A stretch of DNA of 64,000 nt from NCBI RefSeq assembly GCF_964213995.1, contig NW_027590205.1:310001-374000 (forward strand), in the 5' to 3' direction. Source of the DNA: Mustelus asterias. Its lineage: Eukaryota. The translations under genes and the position numbers were made by a program. Position 1 is the first letter of the stretch. Every line of letters begins with the position of its first letter. Positions 3,975 to 52,865 of this stretch are shown here, piece after piece. The notes below the pieces were generated by a model. That model worked only from the letters and a program-made list of their open reading frames with translations. It made no database searches and was not told the origin of the DNA.

Positions 3975-4890
3975 CTGTAGTATTGCTGATGACACCAAGA
4001 TTGGTGGAGTAGTGGATGAGGTGGACGGCTGTTGTAGGCTGCAAAGAGACATAGATATAATGCAAGGCTGTGCTGAAAAATAGCAAATGGAGTTTAACCC
4101 TGATAAATGTGAGGTGATTCATTTTGGTAGGACTAATTTAAATGTGGATTACAGGGTCAAAGGTAGGGTTCTGAAGACTGTGGAGGAACAGAGAGATCTT
4201 GGGGTCCATATCCACAGATCTCTAAAGGTTGCCACTCAAGTGGATAGAGCTGTGAAGAAGGCCTATAGTGTGTTAGCTTTTATTAACAGGGGGTTGGAGT
4301 TTAAGAGCCGTGGGGTTATGCTGCAACTGTACAGGACCTTGGTGAGACCACATTTGGAATATTGTGTGCAGTTCTGGTCACCTCACTATAAGAAGGATGT
4401 GGAAGCGCTGGAAAGAGTGCAGAGGAGGTTTACCAGGATGCTGCCTGGTTTGGAGGGTAGGTCTTATGAGGAAAGGTTGAGGGAGCTAGGGCTGTTCTCT
4501 CTGGAGCGGAGGAGGCTGAGGGAAGACTTAATAGAGGTTTATAAAATGATGAAGGGGATAGATAGAGTGAACGTTCAAAGACTATTTCCTCGGGTGGATG
4601 GAGCTATTGCAAGGGGGCATAACTATAGGGTTCATGGTGGGAGATATAGGAAGGATATCAGAGGTAGGTTCTTTACGCAGAGAATGGTTGGGGTGTGGAA
4701 TGGACTTCCTGCAGTGATTGTGGAGTCAGACACTTTCGGAACATTTAAGCGGGTATTGGATAGGCACATGGAGCACACCAGGATGATAGGGCGTGGGATA
4801 GCTTGATCTTGGTTTCAGATAAAGCTCGGCACAACATCGTGGGCCGAAGGGCCTGTTCTGTGCTCTACTGTTCTATGTTCTATGTTCTAT
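3975..4890 (+). mobile_element. 5'-truncated CR1 LINE
   Basis: ORF 4087-4806 is an RT C-terminus; (TGTTCTA)n tail. Confidence 0.92.
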
Positions 4891-9124: not shown

Positions 9125-11020
9125 AGTAATCTCTACCTCTCTCAGTTATTACAATCTGGACCTTGTTTCAATAATCTCTGTCATAAACCTCTCTCAGTTA
9201 TTACAATCTGGGCCTTTTATCAGCAATCTCTGCCCTAAACCTCTCTCAGTTATTACAATCTGGGCCTTTTATCAGCAATCTCTGCCCTAAACCTCTCTCA
9301 GTTATTGCAATCTGAGCCTTGCATCAGTAAACTGCCCTAAACTTCTCTCAGTTATAACAGCCTGGGCCTTGTATCAGTAATCTCTGCAATAAACGTCTCT
9401 TGGTTATTACAATCAGGGCCTTGTATCAGTCATCTCTGTCCTAAACCTCTCAGTTATTACAATCTGGGCCTCGTAAAAGTAAACTCTGTCCTAAACCTCT
9501 CTCATTTATTACAATCTTGGGCTTTGTATCAGTAATCTCTGCCCTAAACCTCTCTCAGTTATTACAATCTGGGCTTTGTATCAGTAATCTCTGCCATAAT
9601 CTATACACATTTAGAACTGGATACTCTTATTAGCGATAGACAACATGGTTTCTTCGAGGGAGGTCATGCCTCACAAATTTGGTTGAGTCTTTTGAGGAGG
9701 TGACAAAAATGATTGACGAGGGAAGGGCCGTGGATGTCGTCTACATGGATTTTAGTAAAGCATTTGACAAGGTCTCTCTTGGCAGGCTGGTGTAAAAGGT
9801 TAAATCTCACGGGATCAAAGGTGAACTAGCTAGGTCGGTACAGGACTGTCTTGGCCATAGAAGACAGAGGGTAGCAGTGGACGGGTCATTTTCTGATTGG
9901 AGGTCTGTGACTAGTAGTGTTCCGCAGGGCTCTGTACTGGGACCTCTCCTGTTTGTGATATATATATAAATGATTTGGAAGAAGGTATAGCTGGTCTGAT
10001 TCGTAAGTTTGCGGATGACACAAAGATTGCAGGAGTTGCGGATAGTGATGAACATTGTCAGAGAACAAAGCAGGATATAGATAGGCTGGAAAATTGGGTG
10101 GAGAAATGGCAGATGGAATTTAATCCAGATAAATGCGAAGTGATGCATTTTGGTAAATCAAATACAGGGGGGGAGCTATACAATAAATGGCAGAACCATC
10201 AGGAGTATAGACACACAGAGCGATCTGGGTGTGCAAGTCCGCAGATCCTTAAAGGTGGTAGCACAGGTGGAAAAGGTGGTGAAGGAGACATATGGCATGC
10301 TTGCCTATATTGGACGGGGCATCGAGTATAAAAGTTGGCATATGATGTTGCAGTTATATAGAACGTTGGTTCGGCCACATTTGGAATACTGCGTCCAGTT
10401 CTGGTCGCCACACTACCAGAAGGGCGTGGAGGCTTTGGAGAGAGTGCAGAAAAGGTTTACCAGGATGTTGCCCGGAATGGAGGGTATTAGCTATGAGGTG
10501 AGGTTGAGTAAACTAGGGTTGTTCTCCCTTGAAAGACGGAGTTTGAGGGGCGAACTAATAGAAGTTTATAAAATTATGAAGGGCATAGATAGGGTGAACA
10601 GTTGGAAGCTTTTTCCCAGGTTCAAAATGACAAACACAAGGGGTCACAAGTTCAAGGTAAGGGGGGAAAGGTTCAATACAGATATGCAGGGGCCGTATTT
10701 TACACAGAGGATGGTACAGGCCTGGAATGCACTACCAAGCAGGGTGGTTGAGGCAGACACGCAAGGATCATTAAGACTTATCTAGATAGCCACATGAACA
10801 GACTGGGAATAGAGGGATACGAACGGATTGTCTAGTTAGGAACACATGATCGGTGCAGGCTTAGAGGGCCGAAGGGCCTGTTCCTGTGCTGTATTGTTCT
10901 TTGTTCTTTGTTCATAAACCTCTCTCAATTATTACAATCTGGACCTTGTATCAGTAATCTCTGCACTGAACCTTTCTCAGTTATTACAATCTGGGCCTTG
11001 TGTCAGTAATCTCTGCACTT
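9125..11020. repeat. ~52-bp minisatellite (ctctctcagttattacaatctgggccttgtatcagtaatctctgccctaaac), split by a CR1
   Basis: About 9 units at 9125-9600 and 2 more at 10914-11020. Confidence 0.9.
9600..10913 (+). mobile_element. 5'-truncated CR1 LINE
   Basis: RT C-terminal ORF fragments ([17 protein letters not shown]) and a (TTGTTCT)n tail. Confidence 0.92.
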
Positions 11021-13691: not shown

Positions 13692-15699
13692 AGTAAGAAG
13701 TTTAACAACACCAGGTTAAAGTCCAACAGGTTTATTTGGTAGCAAACGCCACACAAGCTTTCGGAGCTGCAAGCCCCTTCTTCAGGTGAGTGGGAATTCT
13801 GTTCACAAACAGAGCATATAAAGACACAAACTCAATTTACATGAATAAGGGTTGGAATGCGAATACTTACAACTAATCAAGTCTTTAAGAAACAAAACAA
13901 CACGAGTGGAGAGAGCATCAAGACAAGCTAAAAAGATATGTATTGTCTCCAGACAAGACAGCCAGTGAAACTCTGTGGGGGTTACAAATAGTGGGACATG
14001 AACCCAATATCCCGGTTGAGGCCGTCCTCGTGTGTGCGGAACTTGGCTATCAGTTTCTGCTCAGCGACTCTGCGCCATCGTGTGTCGCGAAGGCCGCCTT
14101 GGAGAACGCTTACTCGAATATCAGAGGCCGAATGCCCGTGACCGCTGAAGTGCTCCCCAACAGGAAGAGAACAGTCTTGCCTGGTGATTGTCGAGCGGTG
14201 TTCATTCATCCGTTGTCGCAGCGTCTGCATAGTTTCCCCAATGTACCATGCCTCGGGACATCCTTTCTTGCAGCGTATCAGGTAGACAACGTTGGCCGAG
14301 TTGCAAGAGTATGTACCGTGTACCTGGTGGATGGTGTTCTCACGTGAGATGATGGCATCTGTGTTGATGATCCGGCACGTCTTGCAGAGGTTGCTGTGGC
14401 AGGGTTGTGTGGTGTCATGGTCACTGTTCTCCTGAAGGCTGGGTAGTTTGCTGCGGACAATGATCTGTTTGAGGTTGTGCGGTTGTTTGAAGGCAAGAAG
14501 TGGGGGTGTGGGGATGGCCTTGGCGTGATGTTCGACTTCATCAATGACATGTTGAAGGCTCCGGAGGAGATGCCGTAGCTTCTCCGCTCCGGGGAAGTAC
14601 TGGACAACGAAGGGTACTCTGTCCACTGTGTCCCATGTTTGTCTTCTGAGGAGGTCGGTGCGGTTTTTCGCTGTGGCGTTTTGGAAAAACCGCACCGACC
14701 TCCTCAGAAGACAAACACGGGACACAGTGGACAGAGTACCCTTCGTTGTCCAGTACTTCCCCGGAGCGGAGAAGCTACGGCATCTCCTCCGGAGCCTTCA
14801 ACATGTCATTGATGAAGTCGAACATCTCGCCAAGGCCATCCCCACACCCCCACTTCTTGCCTTCAAACAACCGCACAACCTCAAACAGACCATTGTCCGC
14901 AGCAAACTACCCAGCCTTCAGGAGAACAGTGACCATGACACCACACAACCCTGCCACAGCAACCTCTGCAAGACGTGCCGGATCATCGACACAGATGCCA
15001 TCATCTCACGTGAGAACACCATCCACCAGGTACACGGTACATACCCTTGCAACTCGGCCAACGTTGTCTACCTGATACGCTGCAAGAAAGGATGTCCCGA
15101 GGCATGGTACATTGGGGAAACTATGCAGACGCTGCGACAACGGATGAATGAACACCGCTCGACAATCACCAGGCAAGACTGTTCTCTTCCTGTTGGGGAG
15201 CACTTCAGCGGTCACGGGCATTCGGCCTCTGATATTCGGGTAAGCGTTCTCCAAGGCGGCCTTCGCGACACACGACGGCGCAGAGTCGCTGAGCAGAAAC
15301 TGATAGCCAAGTTCCGCACACACGAGGACGGCCTCAACCGGGATATTGGGTTCATGTCCCACTATTTGTAACCCCCACAGAGTTTCATTGGCTGTCTTGT
15401 CTGCAGACAATACACATCTTTTTAGCCTGTCTTGATGCTCTCTCCACTCACATTGTTTTGTTTCTTAAAGACTTGATTAGTTGTAAGTATTCGCATTCCA
15501 ACCATTATTCATGTAAATTGAGTTTGTGTCTTTATATGCTCTGTTTGTGAACAGAATTCCCACTCACCTGAAGAAGGGGCTTGCAGCTCCGAAAGCTTGT
15601 GTGGCTTTTGCTACCAAATAAACCTGTTGGACTTTAACCTGGTGTTGTTAAACTTCTTACTGTGTTTACCCCAGTCCAACGCCGGCATCTCCACATCAT
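13692..15699. mobile_element. Penelope-like element: two 5'-truncated copies in inverted orientation (GIY-YIG endonuclease region plus 3' end)
   Basis: Mirror ORFs 13982-14725(-) and 14628-15371(+) contain VVYLIRC..WYIGET..RQRMNEH. Arms are 13692-14669 and 14684-15661; target duplication GACTTTATCATAA. Confidence 0.93.
15560..15604 (+). ncRNA. Minimal type-I hammerhead ribozyme motif in Penelope 3' region (mirror copy 13749-13793 on minus strand)
   Basis: CCACTCAC-CTGAAGA-a-GGGGC ttgca GCTCC-GAAA-GCTT-GTGTGG: CUGANGA/GAAA core, stem II, and a palindromic short helix III. Confidence 0.6.
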
Positions 15700-20374: not shown

Positions 20375-20672
20375 GGGGAGGCAGTGGTATTGTCAATGGA
20401 CTTGTAATCCAGAGACCGAGGACAAGACTCTGATTGCAGAGACACGGATTCGAATCTCACCACTGCAAATGGTGACATTTGAATTGAATAAAAATCTATC
20501 ATTAAAAGTAAAGTGATCATCATGAAGCCATTGTTGTAAAAGCCCACCTGCCTACGAATGCCCTTTAGAAAAGTAAATCTGCTGTCTTTATCTGGCCTGG
20601 CATGCATGTTTCTCCACATCCACAGCAACGTGGTTGACACTTAAGTGCCCTCAGGGATGGGAAATAAATGCA
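20375..20672 (+). mobile_element. Second tRNA-derived SINE family in the Cmu2-Cmu3 intron
   Basis: ggggaggcagtgg..taatccagag..tcgaatctcacc head; related copies at 38885-39220 and 55230-55540. Confidence 0.6.
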
Positions 20673-20856
20673 CATCTCACGAAGGAATAACACAAATTGC
20701 TGTTGTGATGAAATTCCGAATGGGGCACTGTCTTAATGCAGCAAAGCACATGACAGTAACTTAGAAGTTGTTCTATGCTTTGTACTAACTTTAATAGATC
20801 CCTAATTGCGATGAACATGGGAATGATATATTTTACCCTCGGTTTGAGTCTCTTAC

Positions 20857-21156
20857 CCAGAGGTCCGCTGATGTTCTGACTCTGGGTGAATCCTTGATGA
20901 GTGACCTGGCAGGTATCGACCGCTTTGCTGATCCATTCCCGAGCGGAGACTGTCAGCCTACTGCTGGCCGAAAATTTCCCGTTCACCTCATAGGCAGGAG
21001 AGGTGACAATTCCTGAATCCACAGGTTTCCCATTCTTCAGCCACTCCACTGACTTTGGCTGGAAATCGATGATTGAACAGACGATGGTTGCAAATTTGCT
21101 GCTTGTGATTTCTTCACTGGAACTCACGGTGAGGATAACGGTTGGGGGGATGTCAC
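20857..21156 (-). pseudogene. IGHM: IgM heavy chain Cmu2 exon
   Basis: [74 protein letters not shown]...[17 protein letters not shown] matches shark Cmu2. Donor is G|GTAAGA. The expected acceptor reads AC rather than AG; an in-frame alternative AG is at 21184-21185. Confidence 0.92.
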
Positions 21157-22071
21157 GTTCAACAGGCGCATGTTCAGACGTTACTTGAAGATTCAATTGA
21201 AAACAATTCAAATTAGTTTTTCTTAATTTTAGCACCATAGCTGCCGATTTGATCATTATATCCATGGTTTGGTTGAATTGGTAGGGAATGGCGAATGGAA
21301 TTCAACCGTCAAAAGTGCCACGCAATGCATTTGGGGAGGGCAAACAAAGCAAGGGAATAGTCAATGAAATGGAAGGTTGAGAGGGATTGAGGAAATGCAA
21401 GACCTTGGAGTGCACGTCCACAGGTCCTTGTAGATGGTAGGGCAGCTGGACAAGTTGATCAAGAAAGCATATCGGATTAGTTCCTCTCGACCAACGAGCC
21501 TGCACGTCAGTAGTGAGCAAAATAAAAATTGTTTAACTTTCGACAAAGCAGTTTTGACACCTCGAGTGGAAGCCGAAATTGTTTAAATAACTCACCTCAT
21601 CAGCATTTGTGGACTTTAAGCTCCAGCAAAATATCCGTCCAATATTGTTACCTCGACTGTTTGCAACTGGGGGCTTTTGTTTATAAAGTACACATGTTAC
21701 AGTCAATAATTTTAATCCAGCGTCTTCAACATGTGACAACTCTGAATCTGCCTTTGATATTTGATCACTTTTGAAAGGTGTGGTCTGTCACACAGTTAAC
21801 TGCTCTGGAAGATTTAAAGTACAGATTGATGACATTGTTCACCTGGGAGATCTGCGGGTTTGTATGAATGGGATAGGGGAATGATTGGACTTGATCTGAT
21901 AGCAATATGAGTAAAAATATGTCAAATTTCCCAATAGTGACAATCATTAACCTCAGTGAGGGAAAACACTCAGACGGGGCTGTATTGTCACGTTCACTAT
22001 GAGTAATTATTCTCTGATGTTTAACCCCATGTGTTGTCCTGACAATGAATCATTGATTTTCGACCTGTGTC

Positions 22072-24820: not shown

Positions 24821-25252
24821 TTAATGAAATGTGTTCATTAATGTTGAGGGAAGTCTGTATAATTTCAGACTGTCGCTGAACATTATCCTAAACTCGATGT
24901 TACAGCCATGTTATATTTGAGCTCACCTCGGCCTCAAAAGTTTTCAGCAAAATCAGAAATCGTGTATTTTCATGACGCAATGAGAGGAAATAGATGTTCC
25001 CATTTTACAACCGTGCACATGTTAGCAATATTTTCAGTCCACACCAGAATTTAATCGGTTTACAGATGCAGACTAATAGACTTAGTCACAAATTGAAACA
25101 TGTGTAATAGTATCGTGTGCTCAAAAATACAGACACAAGTGATACTGTAACTGAACTAGAGAAAATAGAGCACATTTCGCCGAAGCATCTTTTTTAAATT
25201 GTTCTTCACAAAACCTCTCAGACAGAAGAGGAAATCGAGAATCAAAGCGGAA

Positions 25253-26191
25253 ATATGTGCCAGGTGCGTGGAACTGCAGCTCTTGAGAGACCGTGTTAGG
25301 GAACTGGAGCTGCAGATCGCTGACCTTAGCCTAATCAGGGAAAATGGGAGAAAAATTGACAGCAGTTATAGGCAACTAGTTACACCGGGGCATCGGGAGA
25401 ATGACACGTGGGTCACAGTTAGGAGGAGTAAAGGGCAGAAGGGTAAAGTACAAGGGAGGTCTCCAGAGGTGTCTCAAAATAGGAAGGGCTTGGTGACAGG
25501 TGTGAGAGGGGAGGGGAGTGGACAGTTAGAAGAAGGGTCACCTGTGGTTGTCCCACTCCAAAACAGGTACATTGTTTTAGATAGTGTGGAGGAGTGTGCC
25601 TCTCCAGGGGTAAGACACAGTGACCAGGTCACTGGCACACAGTCAGGCTCTGTGGCCCGGAAAGGGAAGAGAGGGGTTAGGAGAGTGATAGTGGTGGGGG
25701 ATGCGTCAGTTAGAGGGACAGACAGGCGATTCTGTGGGGGCGAACGGGACTCCAGGATGGTAGTCTGCCTACCTGGTGCTGGGGTCACGGATGTCTCCGA
25801 GCGGATAGGAGGCATTTTAAAAGGGGAAGATAAAGAAACGGATGTCATTATACACATTGGTGGAAATGACGTAGATAGGAAGAGTAGGGGGGTCCTAAGG
25901 GAGCAATTCAGGGAGTTGGGAAATAGGTTAAAAAGTAGGGTCACTAGGGTGGCCATCTCTGGGCTGCTCCCAATGCCTCGTGCCAGTGAGGATAAGAATA
26001 GGGAGTTGGTTCAAATGAATGCCTGGCTAAAGGACTGGTCCAGGAGGGAGGGCTTTATTTTCATAGACCAATGGGAGGTTTTCAGGAGAGGATGGCACCT
26101 GTACAAGAGGGAGGGGTCACAACTAAGTTGGAAGGGCACAAATATCCTGGCTGGGAGCTTTGCTAATGCAGTTCGGGGGGGTTTAAACTAG
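25253..26191 (+). CDS. CR1 ORF1 (partial): Cys/leucine-zipper region plus SGNH esterase-like domain
   Basis: ICARCVELQLLRDRVRELELQI; VIVVGDASVR, CLPGA and HIGGND motifs. The first codons of the listed ORF are flanking host DNA. Confidence 0.85.
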   Translation: MCARCVELQLLRDRVRELELQIADLSLIRENGRKIDSSYRQLVTPGHRENDTWVTVRRSKGQKGKVQGRSPEVSQNRKGLVTGVRGEGSGQLEEGSPVVVPLQNRYIVLDSVEECASPGVRHSDQVTGTQSGSVARKGKRGVRRVIVVGDASVRGTDRRFCGGERDSRMVVCLPGAGVTDVSERIGGILKGEDKETDVIIHIGGNDVDRKSRGVLREQFRELGNRLKSRVTRVAISGLLPMPRASEDKNRELVQMNAWLKDWSRREGFIFIDQWEVFRRGWHLYKREGSQLSWKGTNILAGSFANAVRGGLN

Positions 26192-29115
26192 TGTGGCAGG
26201 GGGGTGGGGATCAAACTATTAGGTCTATAAGTGTGGTGGCTGGGGACGAGCTTGGGGCTGGGACAAGGCTGGCAAAGAAGAAGAGCACTCTGGGGGAGGA
26301 CGACCTCACTGAGCCTGGGGGTCTGGAGTGCTTATACTTCAATGCAAGGAGCGTAGCAGGTAAAACAGACGAACTTGGGGCCTTAATGCGCACGAGGAAT
26401 TTGGATGTGGTTGCGGTGACGGAGACTTGGTTGAAAGAGGGACAGGACTGGCAGCTGAATATTCCAGGGTACAAGTGTTTTAGGCGAGACAGAGGAGGGG
26501 CCAAAAGAGGTGGGGGAGTAGCGGTATTGGTTGGAGAGCATATTACAGCGGTGCAGAGGGAGGACAATTCGGAGGAGTCGTGTAGCGAGTCACTCTGGGT
26601 GGAGCTTAGAAACAGGAAAGGCGCAGTCACTATGTTGGGGGTGTACTACAGGCCCCCCAACAGCCCAAGGGAAGTGGAAGAATGGATATGTCAGGAGATA
26701 CTGGATAGGTGCAGGAAATATAGGGTTGTTGTAGTGGGAGACTTCAATTTCCCTGGTATAGACTGGAAATCGCTGAGGGCAGGGACTCTGGATGGTGAGG
26801 CATTGGTAAAATGTGTACAGGAGGGTTCGTTGGAACAATATGTGGACAGCCCAACTAGAGAGGGGGCTATACTGGACCTGGTGCTGGGGAATGAGCCCGG
26901 TCAGGTCTTCAAAGTTTTGGTCGGGGAACATGTGGCAAATAGTGACCACAATTCTGTTAGCTTTAGGATAGTGATGGAAAAGGATGAGTGGTGTCCCAAG
27001 GGTAAGGTGTTGGATTGGGGGAAGGCTAACTTTATTGGGATCAGGCAGAAATTGGCAGCTCTTGATTGGGAGAGGCTGTTTGAGGGTAAATCCACATCTG
27101 GTATGTGGCAGTCTTTTAAGGAACGGTTGTTAGGGCTACAGGACAAGCATGTGCCTGTAAAAAAGAAGGATAGGAAGGGTAGGATTAGAGAACCGTGGAT
27201 AACCAGGGAAATTGAGGGACTGGTCAAAAGGAAAAGAGAGGCGTATGTTAGGTCCAAGCAGCTAAAAACGGAGGGAGCTCTGGAGGAGTATAATGAAAGG
27301 AGGAAAATACTCAAACGGGGAATTAGAAGAGCAAAAAGGGGTCACGAAATGTTCTTGGCAGACAGGATTAAGGAGAATCCCAAGGCATTTTATTCATACG
27401 TTAGGAACAAAAGGGTTGTAAGGGAAAAAATCGGACCTCTCAGGGACAAAAGTGGGGACTTATGCTTGGAGCCCAAAGAGGTAGGGGAGATCCTAAATGA
27501 ATACTTTGCGTCGGTATTCACTAAGGAGAGGGATGTGTTGACTGGGAGTGTCTCGGAGGGGAGTGTTGAACCGTTGGAGAAAATCTCCATTACAAAGGAG
27601 GAAGTGTTAGGTTTGTTAGAGAATATAAAGACTGACAAATCCCCAGGGCCTGATGGAATCTATCCAAGGCTGCTCAGGGAGACGAGAGGTGAAATAGTTG
27701 GGCCTCTGACGCAAATCTTTGTCTCGTCACTGGACACAGGTGAGGTCCCAGAGGATTGGAGGATAGCCAATGTGGTCCCGTTATTTAAGAAGGGTAGGAA
27801 GGATAACCCGGGTAATTATAGGCCGGTGAGCTTGACGTCCGTGTTGGGGAAGTTGTTGGAGAAGATTCTTAAAGATAGGATGTATGCGCATTTAGAAAGG
27901 AATAAACTCATTAACGATAGTCAACATGGTTTTGTGAGAGGGAGGTCATGCCTCACGAACCTGGTGGTGTTTTTTGAAGAAGTGACCAAAATGGTTGACG
28001 AAGGAAGGGCCGTGGATGTTGTCTATATGGACTTTAGTAAAGCGTTTGACAAAGTCCCTCATGGTAGGCTAGTGAAAAAGGTTGGATCCCATGGGATAAA
28101 GGGGGAGGTGGCTAGATGGGTGGAGAACTGGCTTGGTCATAGAAGACAGAGGGTGGTAGTGGAAGGGTCTTTTTCCGGCTGGAGGCCTGTGACTAGTGGT
28201 GTACCGCAGGGCTCTGTATTGGGACCTCTGCTGTTTGTGATTTATATAAATGATCTGGAAGAAGGAGTAACTGGGGTGATCAGTAAGTTTGCGGACGACA
28301 CAAAACTGGCAGGACTTGCAGATAGTGAGGAACATTGTCAGAGGCTACAGAAGGATATAGATAGGCTGGAAATTTGGGCAAGGAAATGGCAGATGGAGTT
28401 CAATCCTGATAAATGCGAAGTGATGCATTTTGGTGGGAATAATGTAGGGAGGAGCTACACGATAAATGGAAGAACCATAAAGGGTGTAGAGATGCAGAGG
28501 GACCTGGGTGTGCAAGTCCACAGATCTTTGAAGGTGACGTCACAGGTGGAGAAGGTGGTGAAGAAGGCATATGGCATGCTTGCCTTTATAGGACGGGGCA
28601 TAGAGTATAAAAGTTGGGGTCTGATGTTGCAGATGTATAGAACGTTGGTTCGGCCGCATTTGGAATACTGCGTCCAGTTCTGGTCGCCACACTACCAGAA
28701 GGACGTGGAGGCTTTGGAGAGAGTGCAGAGGAGGTTTACCAGGATGTTGCCTGGTATGGAGGGGCTTGGTTATGAGGAGAGATTGGGGAAACTGGGGTTG
28801 TTCTCCTTGGAAAGACGGAGGATGAGGGGAGACTTAATAGAGGTGTATAAAATTATGAAAGGCATAGATAGGGTGAACGGTGGGAAGCTTTTCCCCGGGT
28901 CGGTGGTGACGTTCACGAGGGGTCATAGGTTCAAGGTGAAGGGGGGGAGGTTTAACACAGATATCAGAAGGACATATTTCACACAGAGGGTCGTGGGGGC
29001 CTGGAATGTGTTGCCGGGCAAGGTGGTGGAGGCGGACACACTGGGAACGTTTAAGACTTATCTAGACAGCTATATGAACGGAGTGGGAATGGAGGGATAC
29101 AAAAGAGTGATCTAG
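26191..29115 (+). CDS. CR1 ORF2: APE endonuclease plus reverse transcriptase, uninterrupted 974 aa
   Basis: YFNARS, VTETW, GDFN and SDHN (APE); [19 protein letters not shown] and FADD (RT). Confidence 0.95.
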   Translation: MWQGGGDQTIRSISVVAGDELGAGTRLAKKKSTLGEDDLTEPGGLECLYFNARSVAGKTDELGALMRTRNLDVVAVTETWLKEGQDWQLNIPGYKCFRRDRGGAKRGGGVAVLVGEHITAVQREDNSEESCSESLWVELRNRKGAVTMLGVYYRPPNSPREVEEWICQEILDRCRKYRVVVVGDFNFPGIDWKSLRAGTLDGEALVKCVQEGSLEQYVDSPTREGAILDLVLGNEPGQVFKVLVGEHVANSDHNSVSFRIVMEKDEWCPKGKVLDWGKANFIGIRQKLAALDWERLFEGKSTSGMWQSFKERLLGLQDKHVPVKKKDRKGRIREPWITREIEGLVKRKREAYVRSKQLKTEGALEEYNERRKILKRGIRRAKRGHEMFLADRIKENPKAFYSYVRNKRVVREKIGPLRDKSGDLCLEPKEVGEILNEYFASVFTKERDVLTGSVSEGSVEPLEKISITKEEVLGLLENIKTDKSPGPDGIYPRLLRETRGEIVGPLTQIFVSSLDTGEVPEDWRIANVVPLFKKGRKDNPGNYRPVSLTSVLGKLLEKILKDRMYAHLERNKLINDSQHGFVRGRSCLTNLVVFFEEVTKMVDEGRAVDVVYMDFSKAFDKVPHGRLVKKVGSHGIKGEVARWVENWLGHRRQRVVVEGSFSGWRPVTSGVPQGSVLGPLLFVIYINDLEEGVTGVISKFADDTKLAGLADSEEHCQRLQKDIDRLEIWARKWQMEFNPDKCEVMHFGGNNVGRSYTINGRTIKGVEMQRDLGVQVHRSLKVTSQVEKVVKKAYGMLAFIGRGIEYKSWGLMLQMYRTLVRPHLEYCVQFWSPHYQKDVEALERVQRRFTRMLPGMEGLGYEERLGKLGLFSLERRRMRGDLIEVYKIMKGIDRVNGGKLFPGSVVTFTRGHRFKVKGGRFNTDIRRTYFTQRVVGAWNVLPGKVVEADTLGTFKTYLDSYMNGVGMEGYKRVI

Positions 29116-30751
29116 TTTGGACCAGGGAGCGGCGCGGGCTAATTGTTCCTGGTTTCTCGTTTCAAGGCTTCATTCTACGATCATCTTGCTGGTGCCAGTA
29201 CAGAGTGAGACTGCGGATAGTTGGGAACCTGTCTCGGGGGCAGGGGATTCATATGGTGTTCGTGGAAGTGGAAATGACTAGGGTTGGGAAGCATTTTCCG
29301 ATCGGGGCCATTGTGATCTCCTGGACTCGTTTCGATCGCCTCAGGGGGTCGGAGAGGAATTTCCCAGATTTTTTTTTCCCCATATTGGCCCTGGGGTTTT
29401 TCACTCTGGGTTTTCGCCTCTCCCTGGAGATCACATGGTCTGGAATGGGGGGGTGGGGGTAAGTTAATAGGTTGTAATGAACAAAGCATCGTAGCTGTGA
29501 GGGACAGCTCGGTGGATAGGATATTGGTATGTAGATAGGCTGGAAAATTGGGCGGGGATCCTGGATTCAGGATTCAATCCTGGACCGGGGAGCGGCGCGG
29601 GCTTGGAGGGCCGAAGGGCCTGTTCCTGTGCTGTATTGTTCTTTGTTCTTTGTTCTGAATCTCCTATCGATGAACGAGATTTAGGCACCAGAATGTTTCA
29701 CACACAGAATAAAGAGGGATCAAGTATAACCAACAGATCATTCTTGAATCTCTTCCCTTTAAAGATATTTGATTTGGTTTCAAAGCTGATCATGTTCAAA
29801 CTCAGAAAAACACCATTGGATGTTTATTACCCGTGACTGGATTTAGGATGTTTATTGCCCGTGACTGGATTTATTTTGTTGGTCAGTAATTTTTGCAATT
29901 CAATGTTGTATATTTCAGACATATTCAATTCGCAATGAGGACATCTGTGTGCAATAAATGGATTGATATTAAATGTTGTTTACCGAACAAATACTGGATA
30001 TAACTTCTTGAAGTTAATCGATCGTATATGAGAATGATGCATCAATGATTGAGCAGAAATCGTTGCTCCCTTTGACATTTGTCCGAAAAACGCTTTTAAA
30101 TTTTGGAATTCGAGACAAGTTGAGACATCACGTTGAAAGTAGCGGTTGTCTTCTTGCACTGAGGTAAATGGACTCTCAGTATAACCATTCGAACCTGCAG
30201 CAATAGAGCGGAGTTGAACAATGCAGTCAGACCGATTGTATATTCCAGAGATATGAAATTCAGAATTTGGACATATATATTAAATAACTGTATTGATTTT
30301 AAAAATTGAATGAAGATCCAAGGTGGATTGGGCATGCTAAATTGCCCCTCGGTTAGATAGATTAGTCATGGGAAAGGAGTAGCGTTGTGGGGAAAGCAGG
30401 GGAAATGGCCTGGTTTTGATACTCTGGCGTCGCTGCTGATTCGTTGGGCCGATTGGCCGTTTCGGCACTGATTCTATGATTCCATGAAACAGATACTGAG
30501 TATAATTGGTTGAAATTATTCGCAGGAAGATAAGAATGACGCATTAATGATTGAGCACAAACCAGTGCTTCCTTAGATATTTGCCGGACGAACTCTTCTT
30601 CATTTTGAAGAACAAGATAAGTTGCGATATCAGGTTGAAAGTCAGGGATGTGCCGTTGTATTAAGTGACATGGGCCCTCAATCATACCATTCAAACCTGC
30701 AGCAACATAGTGGAGTTAAACATTGCAGTCAGGCCCATTGAGGCCCCAATG

Positions 30752-32018: not shown

Positions 32019-32067
32019 TTTATTGAGCTTCCTAATTTAGATTGAGGAAAATCTGTACGATTTCAGT

Positions 32068-32840
32068 ACAAAGAACAAAGAACATTACAGCACAGGAACA
32101 GGCCCTTCGGCCCTCCAACCCTGCACCGACCATGCTGCCCGAATTAACTAAAACCCCGACCCTTCCGGGGACCATATCCCTCTGTTCCCATTCCTATTCA
32201 TGTACTTGTCAAGACGCCCCTTAAAAGTCACGACCGTATTCGCTTCCACTACTTCCCCTGGCAACAAGTCCCAGACACCCACGAAACCCTGTGTAAAAAA
32301 TCTGCCTCGTACATCTCCTTTAAACCTTGCCCCTCGCAACTTAAACCTATGTCCCCTAGTAATTGACTCTTCCACCCTAGGAAAAAAGCTTCTGACTATC
32401 CATTCTGTCCATGCCTCTCATAATCTTGTAGACTTCTATCAGGTCGCCCCTCAACCTCCGTCGCTCTAGTGAGAACAAACCAAGTTTCTGCAATCTCTCC
32501 TCGTAGCTAATCCTCTCCATACCACGCAACATCCTGGTAAATCTTTTATGTACCCTCTCCAAAGCTCCACATCCTTCTGGTTGTGTGGCAACCAGAATTC
32601 AACACGATATTCCAAGTGCGGCCTAAATAAGGTTCAATAAAGCTGCAACATGACTTGCCAATTTTTAAACTCAATGCCCCGGCCGATGAAGGCAAGCATG
32701 CCGTATGCCTTCTTGACTACCTTCTCCACCAGCATTGCCACTTTCAGTGACCTGTGTACTTGTACACCCAGATCCCTTTGCCTATCAATACTCTTAAGGG
32801 TGCTGCCATTTACTGTATATTTCCTATCTGTATTAGACCT
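32068..32840 (-). mobile_element. 5'-truncated CR1 LINE inserted in the tRNA array
   Basis: Minus-strand RT C-terminal ORFs; AAGAACA tail on the plus strand. Confidence 0.9.
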
Positions 32841-47009: not shown

Positions 47010-50000
47010 GGGATCAAAGGTGAACACGGGATCAAAGGTGAACTTGCTAGATGGGTACAGAAATGGCTTGGCCATAGAAGACAGAGGGTAGCAGTGGAGG
47101 GGTCTTTTTATCATTGGAGGTCTGTGACTAGTGGTGTTCCGCAGGGCTCTGTACTGGGACCTCTGCTGTTTGCGATATATATAAATGACTTGGAAGAAGA
47201 TGTCTGATTAGTAAGTTTGCGGACGACACAAAGATTGCTGGAGTTGCGGACAGTGATGAACATTGTCAGAGAATATAACAGGATATAAATAGGCTGGAGA
47301 ATTGGGCGGAGAAATGGCAGATGGAATTTAATCCAGATAAATGTGAAGTGATGCATTTTGGTAGATCTAATGCTGGGGGGAGCTATACAATAAATGGCAG
47401 AACCATCAGGAGTATAGACACACAGAGGGATCTGGGTGTGTAAGTCCACAGATCCTTAAAGGTGGCAGCACAGGTGGAAAAGGTGGCGAAGAAGGCATAT
47501 GGCATGCTTGTCTTTATTGGACTGGGCAAAGAGTATAGAAGTTGGCATATGACGTTGCAGTGATATAGAACGTTGGTGAGGCCACATTTGGAATACTGCG
47601 TCCAGTTCTGGTCGCCACACTATCAGAAGGACGTGGAGGCTTTGGAGAGAGTGCAGAAAAGGTTTACCAGGCTGTTGCCTGGTATGGAGGGTATTAAACA
47701 AATAACAGATGCATGTAAAAATGGAACAGCAATAATCATGGGGGATTTTAACCTCCATATTGATTGGTCAACTCAAGTCGGACACGGTGGACTTGAGGAA
47801 GAGTTCTTAGAATGCCGTCACGATAGTTTCCTCGAACAGTATGTTACAGAACCTATGAGGGAGCAAACTATCTTGGATCTGGTCCTGTGTAATGAGACAG
47901 GTAAAATTAATGATCTCCTTGTGAGGGATCCTCTTGGAATGAGTGATCACAGTATGGTTGAATTTCTAATACAGATGGAGGGTGAGAAGTACCGTCCCAA
48001 ACCAGTGTCCTCTGCTTGAACAAGGGGGATTACAAAAGGATAAGGGCGGAGTTGGCTAATGTAGACTGGGAACACAGACTAATTGGTGGGACAGTTGAGG
48101 AACAGTGGAGGATTTTTAAGGAGATTTTTCTCAGTACTCAGCAAAAATATATTCCAGTGCAAAAGAAGGAATGTAAGAAAAGGGATAACCAGCCATGGAT
48201 AACCAAGGAAATAAAGGATAGTATCAAATTAAAAACAAATGCATACAGAGTGGCCAAAATTAGTGGCGAACGAGAAGATTGGGAAAGCTTTAAAAAACAA
48301 CAAAGAGCTACTAAGAAAGCAAGAAAGAAAGGAAAGATAGATTATGAAAGTAAACTAGCACAAAATATAAAAACTGATAGTAAAGGTTTTTACAAACATA
48401 TAAAACGGAAAAGAGTGGCTGAAGTAAATGTTGGTCCCTTAGAAGATGAGAAGGGGGATTTAATAATAGGAAACGAGGAAATGGCCGAGGCCTTAAACAA
48501 GTTTTTTGTGTCGGTCTTCACAGTGGAGGACACAAATAGCATCCCAATAATTGACGGTCATGGGACTGTCGGGAGTGAGGACCTTAAAACGATCACTATT
48601 ACTAAAGAGGTAGTGCTGGGTAGGCTAATGGGACTAAAGGTACACAAGTCCCCTGGTCCGGATGGAATGCATCCCAGGGTACTAAAAGAAACGGCAGAAG
48701 AAATAGCAAATGCATTAGTTGTAATTTATCAAAATTCACTGGACTCTGGGGAGGTGCCAGCTGATTGGAAAACAGCTAATGTAACGCCACTGTTTAAAAA
48801 ATGAGGTAGACAAAAGGCAGGTAACTACAGGCCGGTTAGCTTAACATCCGTACTTGGGAAAATGCTGGAATCTATCATTAAGGAAGAAATAGCAGGACAC
48901 CTGGAAAAGAATGGTTTAATCAAGCAGACGCAGCATGGATTCATGAAGGGAAAGTCATGTTTGACTAATTTACTGGAATTTGTTGAGGATATAACGAGTG
49001 CGGTTGACAGAGGGGAACCGGTGGATGTGGTGTATTTAGATTTCCAGAAGGCATTCGATGAGGTGCCTCACAAAAGATAAAGGTACACGGAGTTGGGGGT
49101 AAAGTGTTAGCGTGGATTGAGGATTGGCTATCGAACAAATGATGTGGAGATGCCGGCGTTGGACTGGGGTGAAGACATTAAGCGCTCCGAAAGCTGATGG
49201 TATTTGCTACCAAATAAACCTGTTGGACTTTAACCTGGTGTTGTTAAAACTCTTACTGTATCTAACAGAAAGCAGAGAGTCGGAATATATGGGTGCTTTT
49301 CCGGTTGGCAATCAGTGACTAGTGGCATGCCGCAGGGATCGGTGCTGGGGCCTCAACTATTTACCATATACATAGACGGTCTGGAGGAAGGGACCGAGTG
49401 TAGGGTAACAAAGTTTGCGGATGACACAAAGATGAGTGGGAAAGCAAATTGCGTGGAGGACACAGAAAGTCTGCAGAGTGATTTGGATAGGCTAAGTGAG
49501 TGGGCAAGGATCTGGCAGATGGAGTATAACGTTGGTAAGTGTGAGGTTATCAACTTTGGAAGGAATAATAGTAAAATGGACTATTACTTAAACGGTGAAA
49601 AATTTCAAAATGGTACTGTGCAGAGGGACCTGGGGGTTCTTGTGTATGAATCACAAAAACTCAGTTTACAGGTGCAGCAGGTAATCAAGAAGGCAAATGG
49701 AACGTTGGCCTTTATCGCGAGAGGGATGGAGTATAAAAACAGGGAGGTCATGCTGCAACTGTACAGGGTACTGGTGAGGCCGCACCTAGAATACTGTGTA
49801 CAATTTTGGTCCCCTTATTTAAGAAAGGATATATTAGCTTTGGAGGGGGTACAGAGAAGGTTCACCAGGTTGATTCCGGAGATGAGGGGGTTAGCTTATG
49901 AGGAGAGATTGAGTAGACTGGGCCTGTACTCATTGGAGTTTAGAAGGTTGAGGGGAGATCTTATAGAGACATATAAGATAATGAAGGGGCTAGACAGGGT

Positions 50001-50790
50001 AGAAGCAGCGAGGTTATTTCCACTTACTAAGGAAACAAGAACTAGGGGGCATAGCCTGAAAATACAGGGGAGTCAATTTAGAACAGAGTTGAGGAGGAAC
50101 TTCTTCTCCGAGAGTGTAGTGAATCTTTGGAATTCTCTGCCCAATGAAGCAGTAGAGTCTACCTCGTTAAATGTGTTTAAGTCACAGATAGATAGATTTT
50201 TAACCATTAAGGGAATTAAGTGTTATGGGGAGTGGGCGGGTAAGTGGAACTGAACTCACTATCCGATCAGCCATGATCTTATTGAATGGCGGAGCAGGCT
50301 TGAGGGGCTAGATGGCCGACCCCGGCTCCTATTTCTTATGTTCTTATGTTCGTAAGTAGCTATGAGGTGAGATTGAGTAAACTAGGGTTATTCTCCCTGG
50401 AAAGACGGAGGTTGAGGGGCGACCTAATAGAAGTTTATAAAATTATGAAGGGCATAGATAGGGTGAACAGTTGGAAGCTTTTTCCCAGGTCAGAAATGAC
50501 AAACACAAGGGGTCACAAGTTCAAGTTAAGGGGGACAAGGTTCAATACAGATATGCAGGGGACGTTCTTTACACAGAGGGTGGTGGGGGCCTGGAATGCA
50601 CTACCAAGCAAGGTGGTTGAGACAGACACGCTAGGATCATTTAAGACTTATCTAGATAGCCACATGAACAGACTGGGAATAGAGGGATACAAACGGATGG
50701 TCTAGTTAGGAACACATGATCGGTGCAGACTTGGTGGGCCGAAGGGCCTGTTCCTGTGCTGTATTGTTCTTTGTCCTTTATTTGTTCTTT
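47010..50790 (+). mobile_element. Nested CR1s: outer element (47010-47695 + 50357-50790) split by a second subfamily (47696-50356)
   Basis: The outer reading 'PGMEGI|SYEVRLSKLG' is interrupted by a ~2.7-kb APE/RT fragment with its own TTCTTATG tail. Confidence 0.9.
49139..49258. mobile_element. Miniature Penelope insertion (inverted terminal tail plus forward 3' piece) inside a CR1
   Basis: atgatgtggagatgccggcgttggactgggg is the reverse complement of the element's end. It is joined to gctccgaaagct...aataaacctgttggactttaacctggtgttg...cttactg and flanked by tatc(g/t)aaca. Confidence 0.8.
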
Positions 50791-51763: not shown

Positions 51764-52865
51764 AGAACAAAGAACAACGAACAATACAGCACAGGAACAG
51801 GCCCTTCGGCCCTCCAAGCCCGTGCCGCTCCCTGGTCCAAACTAGACCATTCTTTTGTATCCCTCCATTCCCACTCCGTTCATATGGCTGTCTAGATAAG
51901 TCTTAAACGTTCCCAGTGTGTTCGCCTCCACCACCTTGCCTGGGAGCGCATTCCAGGCCCCCACCACCCTCTGTGTAAAATATGTCCTTCTGATATCTGT
52001 GCTAAACCTCCCCCCACCCCCACCCCCTTCACCTTGAACCTATGATCCCTCGTGAACGTCACCACCGACCTGGGGAAAAGCTTCCCAGCGTTCACCCTAT
52101 CTATGCCTTTCATAATTTAATACACCTCTATTAAGTCTCCCCTCATCCTCCGTCTTTCCAGGGAGAACAACCCCAGTTTACCCAATCTCTCCTCATAACT
52201 AAGCCCCTCCATACCAGGCAACATCCTGGTAAGCCTCCTCTGTACTCTCTCCAAAGCCTCCACGTCCTTCTGGTAGTGTGGCGACCAGAACTGGACGCAG
52301 TATTCCAGATGCGGCCGAACCAACGTTCTATACATCTGCAACATCAGACCCCAACTTCTATACTCTATGCCCCGTCCTATAAAGGCAAGCATGCCATATG
52401 CCATCTTCACCACCCCTTCCACCTGTGACGTCACCTTCAAGGATCTGTGGACTTGCACACCCATGTCCCTCTGCGTATCTACACCCTTTATGGTTCTGCC
52501 ATTTATCGTATAGCTCCTCCCTACATTATTTCTACCAAAATGCATCACTTCGCATTCATCAGGATTGAACTCCATCTGCCATTTCTTTGCCCAAATTTCC
52601 AGCCTATCTATATCCTGCTGTAGCTTCTGACAATGCTCCTCACTATCTGCAAGTCCTGCCAATTTTGTGTCGTCCGCAAACTTACTGATCACCCCAGTTA
52701 CACCTTCTTCCAGATCGTTTATATAAATCACAAACAGCAGAGGTCCCAATACAGAGCCCTGCGGAACACCACTAGTCACAGGCCTCCAGCCAGAAAAAGA
52801 CCCTTCCACTACCATCCTCTGTCTTCTGTGACCAAGCCAGTTCTCCACCCATCTAGCCCATCTAG
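51764..52865 (-). mobile_element. 5'-truncated CR1, same subfamily as 25253-29655
   Basis: ORF 52117-52848 is nearly identical to the C-terminal part of ORF2. Confidence 0.92.

What the first reader, a model, noticed from the sequence alone, without database searches (positions are those of the whole stretch)
26170..26240. In-frame U_UUA_AAC slippery heptamer joins CR1 ORF1 to ORF2: candidate -1 ribosomal frameshift
Seen: ORF1 ends GGT TTA AAC TAG, so T_TTA_AAC (26182-26188) is in the exact X_XXY_YYZ phase. A -1 slip reads TTT AAA CTA GTG TGG CAG, which is the ORF2 frame. ORF2's first ATG (26386) lies after the conserved endonuclease motif YFNARS, so AUG initiation would truncate the enzyme. 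A G-rich tract (GGCAGGGGGGTGGGG) starts ~6 nt downstream, the usual stimulator distance. Established: UUUAAAC is the coronavirus frameshift heptamer, and LINE ORF2s are usually thought to use re-initiation. Inference: this element may make a gag-pol-like ORF1-ORF2 fusion. The overlapping TAG/GTG allows re-initiation as an alternative.
Basis: partly seen in the sequence, partly recalled or inferred. Interest (0 to 1): 0.72.

Follow-up and report, generated by a model that had tools for sequence, protein, structure and literature searches.

The report
Conserved ribosome-slip site in CR1 LINEs
A common jumping gene (a CR1-type LINE) ends its first gene on a seven-letter "slippery" sequence that its relatives keep, or swap only for other slippery sequences, so its copying enzyme is likely made when ribosomes slip back one base and fuse the two proteins; the copy flagged here has lost its front end and is likely an inactive relic of that layout.

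Summary
Observation confirmed. U_UUA_AAC (26182-26188) ends ORF1 in phase, ORF2 is open in the -1 frame, and its first AUG lies after the endonuclease's first motif. This copy is 5'-truncated; the signal belongs to the family (331 exact junction copies). The heptamer is kept in 12 of 12 families (54-92% identical) and 208 of 210 copies, using minority codons, while the preceding codon takes many amino acids yet ends in T in 209 of 210. The linker varies from 43 to 68 codons, stays in the -1 frame and shows pS>pN there. Of 87 distant ORF1 proteins, 54 end on a tripeptide compatible with U_UUA_AAC, G_GGA_AAC or A_AAA_AAC (background 0.6%); one distant locus shows G_GGA_AAC-stop in DNA. The stop-overlapping GUG is not conserved. 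A G-tract is conserved at synonymous sites, but I found no conserved hairpin or long-range partner, so the stimulator is unknown. Best reading: programmed -1 frameshifting giving an ORF1-ORF2 fusion (about 0.8), untested experimentally. Not found in print for CR1 in ten searches; the original CR1 papers were unavailable. The scan noted this junction before in other genomes.

The parts
25253..29656 (+). 5'-truncated copy of a young esterase-type CR1 LINE family
   Evidence: Identity with a longer sibling ends at 25253; 3' tail repeat ends at about 29656 where siblings diverge; 11-13 differences from two siblings over 2930 nt of ORF2.
25253..26191 (+). ORF1 remnant (312 of 338 codons plus stop), SGNH esterase domain at about 25766-26092
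   Evidence: PF13472 E 1.2e-8; profile of relatives matches the solved ORF1 esterase 4C1B, E 8.7e-34; missing start codon.
26179..26185 (+). Second in-phase heptamer G_GGU_UUA, overlapping the main one; not conserved in all families
   Evidence: 5 of 12 families, 96 of 210 copies.
26182..26188 (+). Slippery heptamer U_UUA_AAC, predicted -1 frameshift site
   Evidence: 12 of 12 families, 202 TTTAAAC + 6 TTTAAAT of 210 copies.
26189..26191 (+). ORF1 stop codon directly after the heptamer (read as Leu CTA in the -1 frame)
   Evidence: TAG 124, TAA 85, TGA 1 of 210 copies selected for a stop at this place.
26195..26209 (+). G-rich tract; conserved core GGGG at 26199-26202 and GGG at 26206-26208; candidate stimulator of unknown kind
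   Evidence: Core columns G in 11-12 of 12 representatives, including three synonymous third positions that are G in 12 of 12; each core column G in 201-209 of 210 copies.
26188..26322 (+). Linker in the -1 frame between slip site and endonuclease; variable length, weakly constrained as protein
   Evidence: 43-68 codons heptamer to Asn in 150 open copies; pS>pN in the -1 frame in 4 of 4 same-length pairs.
26323..26325 (+). CTG six codons before the conserved Asn: first hydrophobic residue of the endonuclease, also the candidate near-cognate start of a rival model
   Evidence: TTG or CTG in 144 of 150 open copies against 56-65% of Leu codons in ORF2.
26335..26949 (+). APE-type endonuclease domain; conserved Asn at 26341-26343, first ATG at 26386-26388
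   Evidence: PF03372 residues 57-261; weak match to L1 endonuclease 1VYB, E 0.0017.
27799..28461 (+). Reverse transcriptase domain of ORF2 (ORF2 stop at 29113-29115)
   Evidence: PF00078 residues 545-765, E 1.6e-37.
29116..29656 (+). 3' UTR with a family-specific insert of about 460 nt between two copies of a 21-mer (29119-29139, 29582-29602), then the usual tail and short T-rich repeats
   Evidence: shared by 5 siblings, absent from the related family of L255/L257.

Best explanation
In this CR1 family ORF1 ends on a conserved in-phase U_UUA_AAC plus stop and ORF2 continues in the -1 frame with no AUG before the endonuclease, so ORF2 is likely made by programmed -1 ribosomal frameshifting as a predicted ORF1-linker-endonuclease-reverse-transcriptase fusion. 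Shown: the layout, its conservation at synonymous sites, the in-frame linker, and the slippery-compatible ORF1 ends in distant relatives. Inferred: most ribosomes stop and release the esterase ORF1 protein; a minority slip back one base with tRNA-Leu and tRNA-Asn on the heptamer, read the stop as Leu and continue, which would set a high ORF1:ORF2 ratio as in gag-pol. Inferred and weakest: the G-tract 11-20 nt downstream would pause the ribosome, by a bound protein or a small G-quadruplex and not by a hairpin. The window's copy is truncated and only preserves the signal.
For: (1) Heptamer identical in 12 of 12 family representatives of 0.54-0.92 identity; third positions are invariant in only 7 of 79 other ORF1 columns. 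(2) The codon before Leu encodes 8 amino acids (G, D, S, R, C, H, T, A) plus N, and ends in T in 209 of 210 copies. (3) TTA is 5-20% of Leu codons and AAC 18-38% of Asn codons in six ORF2s. (4) The endonuclease motif lies in the -1 frame in 158 copies against 12 and 12 in the other frames (182 found among 210); the frame is open in 150; 12 linker lengths from 43 to 68 codons. (5) Linker pS/pN in the -1 frame: 0.32/0.19, 0.46/0.17, 0.26/0.09, 0.22/0.11. (6) Only 36 of 150 open copies have a Met before the Asn motif. In 30 loci picked by endonuclease alone (one family), 25 have the heptamer in frame and open, and 5 of these lack the linker Met with ORF2 frames of 976-980 codons. (7) The -1 frame closes 5 codons before the heptamer in 146 of 210 copies, with no shared start codon there. 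(8) 54 of 87 distant ORF1 proteins end on a slippery-compatible x-L-N, x-G-N or x-K-N against 141 of 24502 internal positions; the residue before LN is never one that cannot end in T (0 of 43; 10 and 12 of 43 at the next two positions), the residue before GN is Q in 9 of 9, and the classes intermix on the tree. (9) L091, 29% identical in ORF1, has CAG GGA AAC TAG, a G-run and an open -1 frame into the endonuclease. (10) Ray and stork gene models read F-K-L at the junction in the ORF2 frame while swallow, snake and turtle ORF1s end L-N. (11) U_UUA_AAC, G_GGA_AAC and A_AAA_AAC are named among the most shifty heptamers (PMC5009743, passage).
Against: No experiment. No conserved hairpin: of 39 folding z-scores (13 sequences, 3 lengths) one is below -2, and no Rfam match. 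No conserved partner for the G-tract downstream or in the 3' tail. A two-tier quadruplex is the predicted fold in only 5 of 9. A stop directly after a heptamer can be decoded by eRF1 before the shift (PMC4373837, abstract), which could lower efficiency. 17 of 87 distant ORF1s show no slippery-compatible end within 14 residues. Outside this genome there is DNA for one junction only, and it has an ATG four codons before its heptamer and two more before the endonuclease. The Leu six codons before the Asn is TTG or CTG in 144 of 150 copies. Families are related, so counts are not independent events.
Confidence: 0.8

Rival explanations
1. Termination-reinitiation at the junction: ribosomes stop at the ORF1 stop and restart in the -1 frame next to it, on any codon, with the heptamer and G-tract acting as a ribosome-retention signal. 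ORF2 would be a separate protein starting in the linker.
For: It also predicts an open, translated linker. Precedent in SART1 and a proposed mechanism for LINE-1, and calicivirus reinitiation tolerates changes in the start codon (PMC5972666, passages). The stop-overlapping codon is ATG in 8, GTG in 36, ATT in 63 and ATA in 12 of 210 copies. The G core resembles the calicivirus 18S-pairing motif as I recall it.
Against: That codon is GAT, GAA, GTA, GTT, AAA, GGA or ACA in 91 of 210 copies, including young families with intact ORF2. The model does not explain why the seven bases before the stop are fixed, nor why distant lineages move between L-N, G-N and K-N with the matching preceding residue. 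The G core lies 3' of the stop, whereas the calicivirus element acts upstream.
Confidence: 0.1
2. Near-cognate initiation at the CUG/UUG six codons before the endonuclease Asn (26323), after scanning or internal entry; the heptamer then has another role.
For: TTG 96 and CTG 48 of 150 open copies, against 56-65% of ORF2 Leu codons; G at -3 and +4 in the window family; L091 has Met at this position.
Against: The position is a hydrophobic residue of the first strand (Leu, Ile or Met across families). The linker before it would be non-coding, yet it keeps frame through 12 lengths and shows pS>pN. One family representative has no near-cognate codon there (L134). It leaves the heptamer unexplained.
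Confidence: 0.06
3. The heptamer is fixed for another reason: a required L-N protein end, a splice acceptor, transcriptional slippage, or a palindromic DNA/RNA signal.
For: TTTAAA is palindromic; TAG families offer an AG; L-N is near-invariant in shark and ray ORF1s.
Against: A protein constraint would not fix TTA, AAC or the T before them. A well-supported four-member esterase clade lacks the L-N end. 85 of 210 copies have TAA, so no AG. G_GGA_AAC in L091 is not palindromic.
Confidence: 0.04

Closest known systems
Esterase-ORF1 canonical CR1 LINEs of vertebrates (PMC13343379; abstract, section 15, term search of main text and one supplement)
   Same: Esterase ORF1, APE plus RT in ORF2, no poly-A tail.
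   Different: The survey does not mention frameshift, start codon, overlap or translation; the junction signal is the addition.
Dictyostelium TRE5-A and TRE3-A non-LTR elements (PMC5911963, figure legend passage)
   Same: APE-type non-LTR elements said to need a -1 frameshift for ORF2.
   Different: Other clade and host; I saw only the review's statement, not its evidence or site. No sequence comparison was made.
Retroviral and coronavirus -1 frameshift sites; Rous sarcoma virus has a natural stop right after its heptamer (PMC5009743 passages; PMC4373837 abstract and section 21)
   Same: Same heptamer classes and phase; structural ORF upstream, enzyme ORF in the -1 frame; adjacent stop as in RSV.
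   Different: Those sites use a hairpin or pseudoknot; none is conserved here. RSV efficiency did not depend on the stop.
SART1 overlapping stop-start coupling and LINE-1 ORF2 reinitiation (PMC5972666, passages)
   Same: Bicistronic non-LTR RNA with a downstream enzyme ORF; one old family here has ATG overlapping the stop.
   Different: The overlapping AUG is present in 8 of 210 copies only; no conserved downstream structure; a fixed heptamer precedes the stop.
Protein-stimulated frameshifting in arteriviruses (nsp1-beta with PCBP; PMC5009743, passage)
   Same: A short unstructured motif downstream of the shift site could be read by a protein.
   Different: The motif here is G-rich, and no binding partner is known or tested.

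Membership tests
Esterase-type CR1 LINE | ORF2 with APE endonuclease and reverse transcriptase | tested here: met
   PF03372 and PF00078 in one 982-codon frame.
Esterase-type CR1 LINE | SGNH esterase ORF1 | tested here: met
   PF13472; 4C1B at E 8.7e-34 with profile A2.
Esterase-type CR1 LINE | 5'-truncated dispersed copies ending in short repeats, no poly-A, no LTR | tested here: met
   Variable 5' ends in 17 + strand siblings; tails.
Esterase-type CR1 LINE | RT tree placement in the canonical CR1 clade and not L2 | not tested
   Only an ORF1 tree was built (quick search); nearest named ORF1s are from sharks, rays, reptiles and birds.
Programmed -1 ribosomal frameshift site | X_XXY_YYZ heptamer in the phase of the upstream ORF | tested here: met
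Programmed -1 ribosomal frameshift site | Downstream ORF open in the -1 frame from the site | tested here: met
   150 of 210 copies open to the endonuclease motif.
Programmed -1 ribosomal frameshift site | Heptamer conserved beyond amino-acid needs | tested here: met
Programmed -1 ribosomal frameshift site | Trans-frame protein or reporter output that depends on the heptamer | not testable with these tools
   Needs reporter assay, ribosome profiling or mass spectrometry.
Canonical hairpin- or pseudoknot-stimulated -1 site (retrovirus, coronavirus type) | Stable conserved stem starting 5-9 nt downstream | tested here: not met
   Folding z-scores unremarkable; no conserved pairing partner for the G-tract. 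Pseudoknots were not modelled directly. It is therefore not filed in this class.
Long-distance (3'-end paired) -1 site | Downstream motif pairs with the element's 3' tail, in a conserved register | tested here: not met
   In 29 of 40 long loci with a detected tail, the motif ranked between 0.05 and 0.79 among all element windows for pairing with the tail.
G-quadruplex-stimulated -1 site | Quadruplex-forming G-runs at stimulator distance in all families | tested here: inconclusive
   G4Hunter top 0.2-3.4% of ORF2 windows in 8 of 9; two-tier fold predicted in 5 of 9; no three-tier pattern in 9.
SART1-type overlapping stop-start reinitiation | AUG overlapping the ORF1 stop | tested here: not met
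   ATG in 8 of 210 copies; GTG in the window family.

The most novel reading that the evidence does not exclude
Heptamer + stop + G-tract is the ancestral way in which esterase-type CR1 LINEs, from invertebrate hosts to birds, make their reverse transcriptase, and it is a new stimulator class: an unstructured G-motif read by a protein (a host G-tract binder or the element's own ORF1 protein), which would make the ORF1:ORF2 ratio a regulated switch in the dominant retrotransposon of most vertebrates.
Probability: 0.2. Interest if true: 0.88.

Novelty: new variant of a known kind. Interest (0 to 1): 0.7.

Why it matters
How LINEs translate ORF2 is a long-standing question, and the reviewed models are reinitiation (SART1, LINE-1). 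CR1-group elements are described as the dominant retrotransposons of most vertebrates (PMC13343379, abstract). If they use a gag-pol-like frameshift, the real ORF2 protein carries an N-terminal esterase domain, annotated ORF2 starts are wrong, and engineered CR1 constructs need the junction. The site is short, has natural variants in three heptamer classes and can be tested with a standard reporter. The lack of a hairpin points to a stimulator type for which a 2016 review knew no natural quadruplex example.

Tried and rejected
Local hairpin downstream: none conserved. Long-range pairing with ORF2 or the 3' tail, a lead from earlier finding e1-9829915: not supported in this clade. Rfam: 0 matches at E<=5. 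Upstream start in the -1 frame: frame closed 5 codons upstream in 146 of 210. Splice acceptor: no AG in TAA families. DNA of other hosts: viral contigs gave nothing in 3 protein scans and 1 pattern scan; genome contigs gave nothing or bacterial SGNH hydrolases; plasmids no match; metagenome contigs gave 2 loci, one covering the junction. Public runs were all assembled contigs, three with small shares; no inserted or missing letters were listed at the junction, but contigs cannot show expression or rare RNA variants, so this is not used as evidence. Longer-protein search: 7 hits, single gene models or mutated copies, no natural in-frame fusion family shown. HMMER's L1 endonuclease alignment starts off-register at the motif, so the Asn assignment rests on Pfam; that this Asn is an active-site residue is recalled, and a look in PMC4837594 did not mention it. 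No structure prediction was run.
Full report
What is there. The finding lies in a LINE copy at 25253-29656 (+). ORF1 (frame 25169..26191) encodes an SGNH esterase, and ORF2 (frame 26167..29115) an APE endonuclease and a reverse transcriptase. The nearest named ORF1 relatives are from sharks and rays. The copy is young: 40 of 40 scored matches to 441 nt around the junction are 100% identical, and a 31-base junction pattern occurs 331 times in the genome, its control 0 times. It is 5'-truncated and lacks the first 26 of 338 ORF1 codons. The question is therefore about the family.

Check of the observation. All stated coordinates hold. The first AUG of ORF2 is residue 74; the endonuclease profile starts at residue 57. 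The heptamer alone is not rare, and ORF1 has two other in-phase heptamers.

Conservation inside the genome. I gathered 230 loci by one DNA search, five ORF1 protein searches and 60 fetched stretches; at least one place was fetched twice, and about 30 are near-identical siblings. 229 had an ORF1 C-terminal match; 210 had the stop at the aligned place and were counted. Of the 19 left out (indels or a mutated stop), 18 still show TTTAAAC or TTTAAAT in the printed sequence. Among the 210: TTTAAAC 202, TTTAAAT 6, other 2. The codon before Leu is GGT, GAT, AGT, CGT, TGT, CAT, ACT, GCT, AAT or (once) TGC. Clustering at 92% on sequence upstream of the heptamer gave 21 clusters; 12 with two or more members and an open ORF1 end were used (one cluster of 4 and two truncated singles had no open ORF1 end; six more singles were listed but not counted). 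All 12 have TTTAAAC, whereas third positions are invariant in 7 of 79 other columns. Other in-phase heptamers reach 5, 4 and 1 of 12. TTA and AAC are minority codons in ORF2.

The linker. Representatives were chosen for an open frame, so their zero stops are not a test. The unselected count is: endonuclease motif in the -1 frame in 158 copies, 12 and 12 in the other frames; open in 150 of 210; lengths 43 to 68 codons. In 4 of 4 same-length pairs (a fifth pair differed in length and was dropped) pS exceeds pN in the -1 frame; the samples are small. A Met before the Asn motif is in 36 of 150. In 30 loci chosen by endonuclease only, all one family, 25 have the heptamer in frame and open, 1 has a stop, 4 have no junction; 5 of the 25 lack that family's linker Met and keep 976-980-codon frames.

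Distant relatives. Of the 35 close ORF1 proteins, 25 end in L-N and one in I-N; the others are fragments or read on. A profile search of 50%-identity representatives returned 150 proteins; 87 had the last esterase motif 20-40 residues from the end and were counted. 43 end LN, 9 GN, 2 KN: the dipeptides of U_UUA_AAC, G_GGA_AAC and A_AAA_AAC. All 54 have a preceding residue able to supply the matching first base; the internal background is 0.58%. 70 of 87 have such a tripeptide, or an F-F/F-L one, in the last 14 residues against 9.6% of control windows; 17 have none. On a quick tree the classes intermix, and a four-member clade has none. Named LN-enders include a snake, a swallow and a turtle. 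Ray and stork gene models read F-K-L in the ORF2 frame; together with L-N-stop in the ORF1 frame this implies the same heptamer, deduced from different copies and not seen as DNA. The one distant junction seen as DNA, L091, has G_GGA_AAC, a stop, a G-run and an open -1 frame, but also in-frame ATGs. Most unnamed proteins are not verified as CR1 ORF1s, and their hosts are unknown.

The downstream tract. GGGG at +11 to +14 and GGG at +18 to +20 are kept, including three synonymous positions (which used L012 in place of L152). No conserved hairpin, no conserved partner in ORF2 or the tail, no Rfam family. A two-tier quadruplex is predicted in 5 of 9. The tract is under nucleotide-level constraint, but what reads it is open.

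Mechanism. I commit to -1 frameshifting (0.8). Shown: layout and conservation. Inferred: slip, fusion, ratio, role of the G-tract. Reinitiation at the stop (0.1) and near-cognate initiation at 26323 (0.06) remain, because reinitiation can tolerate poor start codons and the Leu codon there is nearly always TTG or CTG; neither explains the heptamer or its class switches.

Literature. Ten full-text searches, seen as listings, gave no paper proposing frameshifting for CR1. Read in passages: PMC5009743 (first 300,000 of 449,034 characters held; 'CR1' 0 times), PMC5972666, PMC2734521 ('frameshift' 0 times), PMC5911963 and PMC5006619, PMC3905857, PMC4255032, PMC4837594, PMC13720416. PMC13343379: abstract, section 15, term search, one supplement. 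PMC4373837: abstract and section 21. Not held and not seen: the SART1, LINE-1 reinitiation and CR1 esterase papers and the 1997 chicken and turtle CR1 papers; an earlier suggestion there, or in repeat-database notes or bioRxiv supplements, cannot be excluded. A review states that TRE5-A and TRE3-A need a -1 frameshift, so the idea has a precedent among non-LTR elements.

Earlier scan notes. Seven earlier findings in other genomes describe such a junction. They were seen after my reading was formed and are not counted as support; they gave three leads, which I checked.

Verdict. A real, conserved recoding-like signal; a new variant of a known kind; interest 0.7.

Noticed in passing
window 13692-14669 and 14684-15661: A 978-nt inverted repeat, 98% complementary, 14 nt between arms; each arm carries a GIY-YIG endonuclease-like frame just under the Pfam cut-off, probably a Penelope-like element in inverted arrangement.
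   Followed up: partly
window 20651-21301 (-): An immunoglobulin C1-set domain exon about 4 kb from the CR1 copy, so the insertion may lie in or near an immunoglobulin-type locus.
   Followed up: no
window 29119-29602: The family's 3' UTR holds an insert of about 460 nt between two copies of a 21-mer; shared by 5 siblings and absent from a sister family, so it was gained by the master element.
   Followed up: partly
window 4078-4888, 9599-10913, 32062-32825, 47025-47691, 49267-50782, 51764-52858: Six further 5'-truncated CR1 fragments, 68-96% identical to the young copy; none reaches the ORF1/ORF2 junction.
   Followed up: partly
proteins P0102, P0104, P0119, P0203, P0205: A sub-clade of distant ORF1s ends in F-F or G-F-L followed by a few residues, as expected for a U_UUU_UUN heptamer; no DNA was available.
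   Followed up: partly
proteins P0127, P0135, P0170, P0171, P0176: A clade has x-K-N about 10 residues before its stop, suggesting an A_AAA_AAY site without an adjacent stop.
   Followed up: partly
protein P0011: A shark-type CR1 ORF1 carries a Pseudomonas aeruginosa label in NCBI on a 4-kb contig; probably host contamination of that assembly.
   Followed up: no
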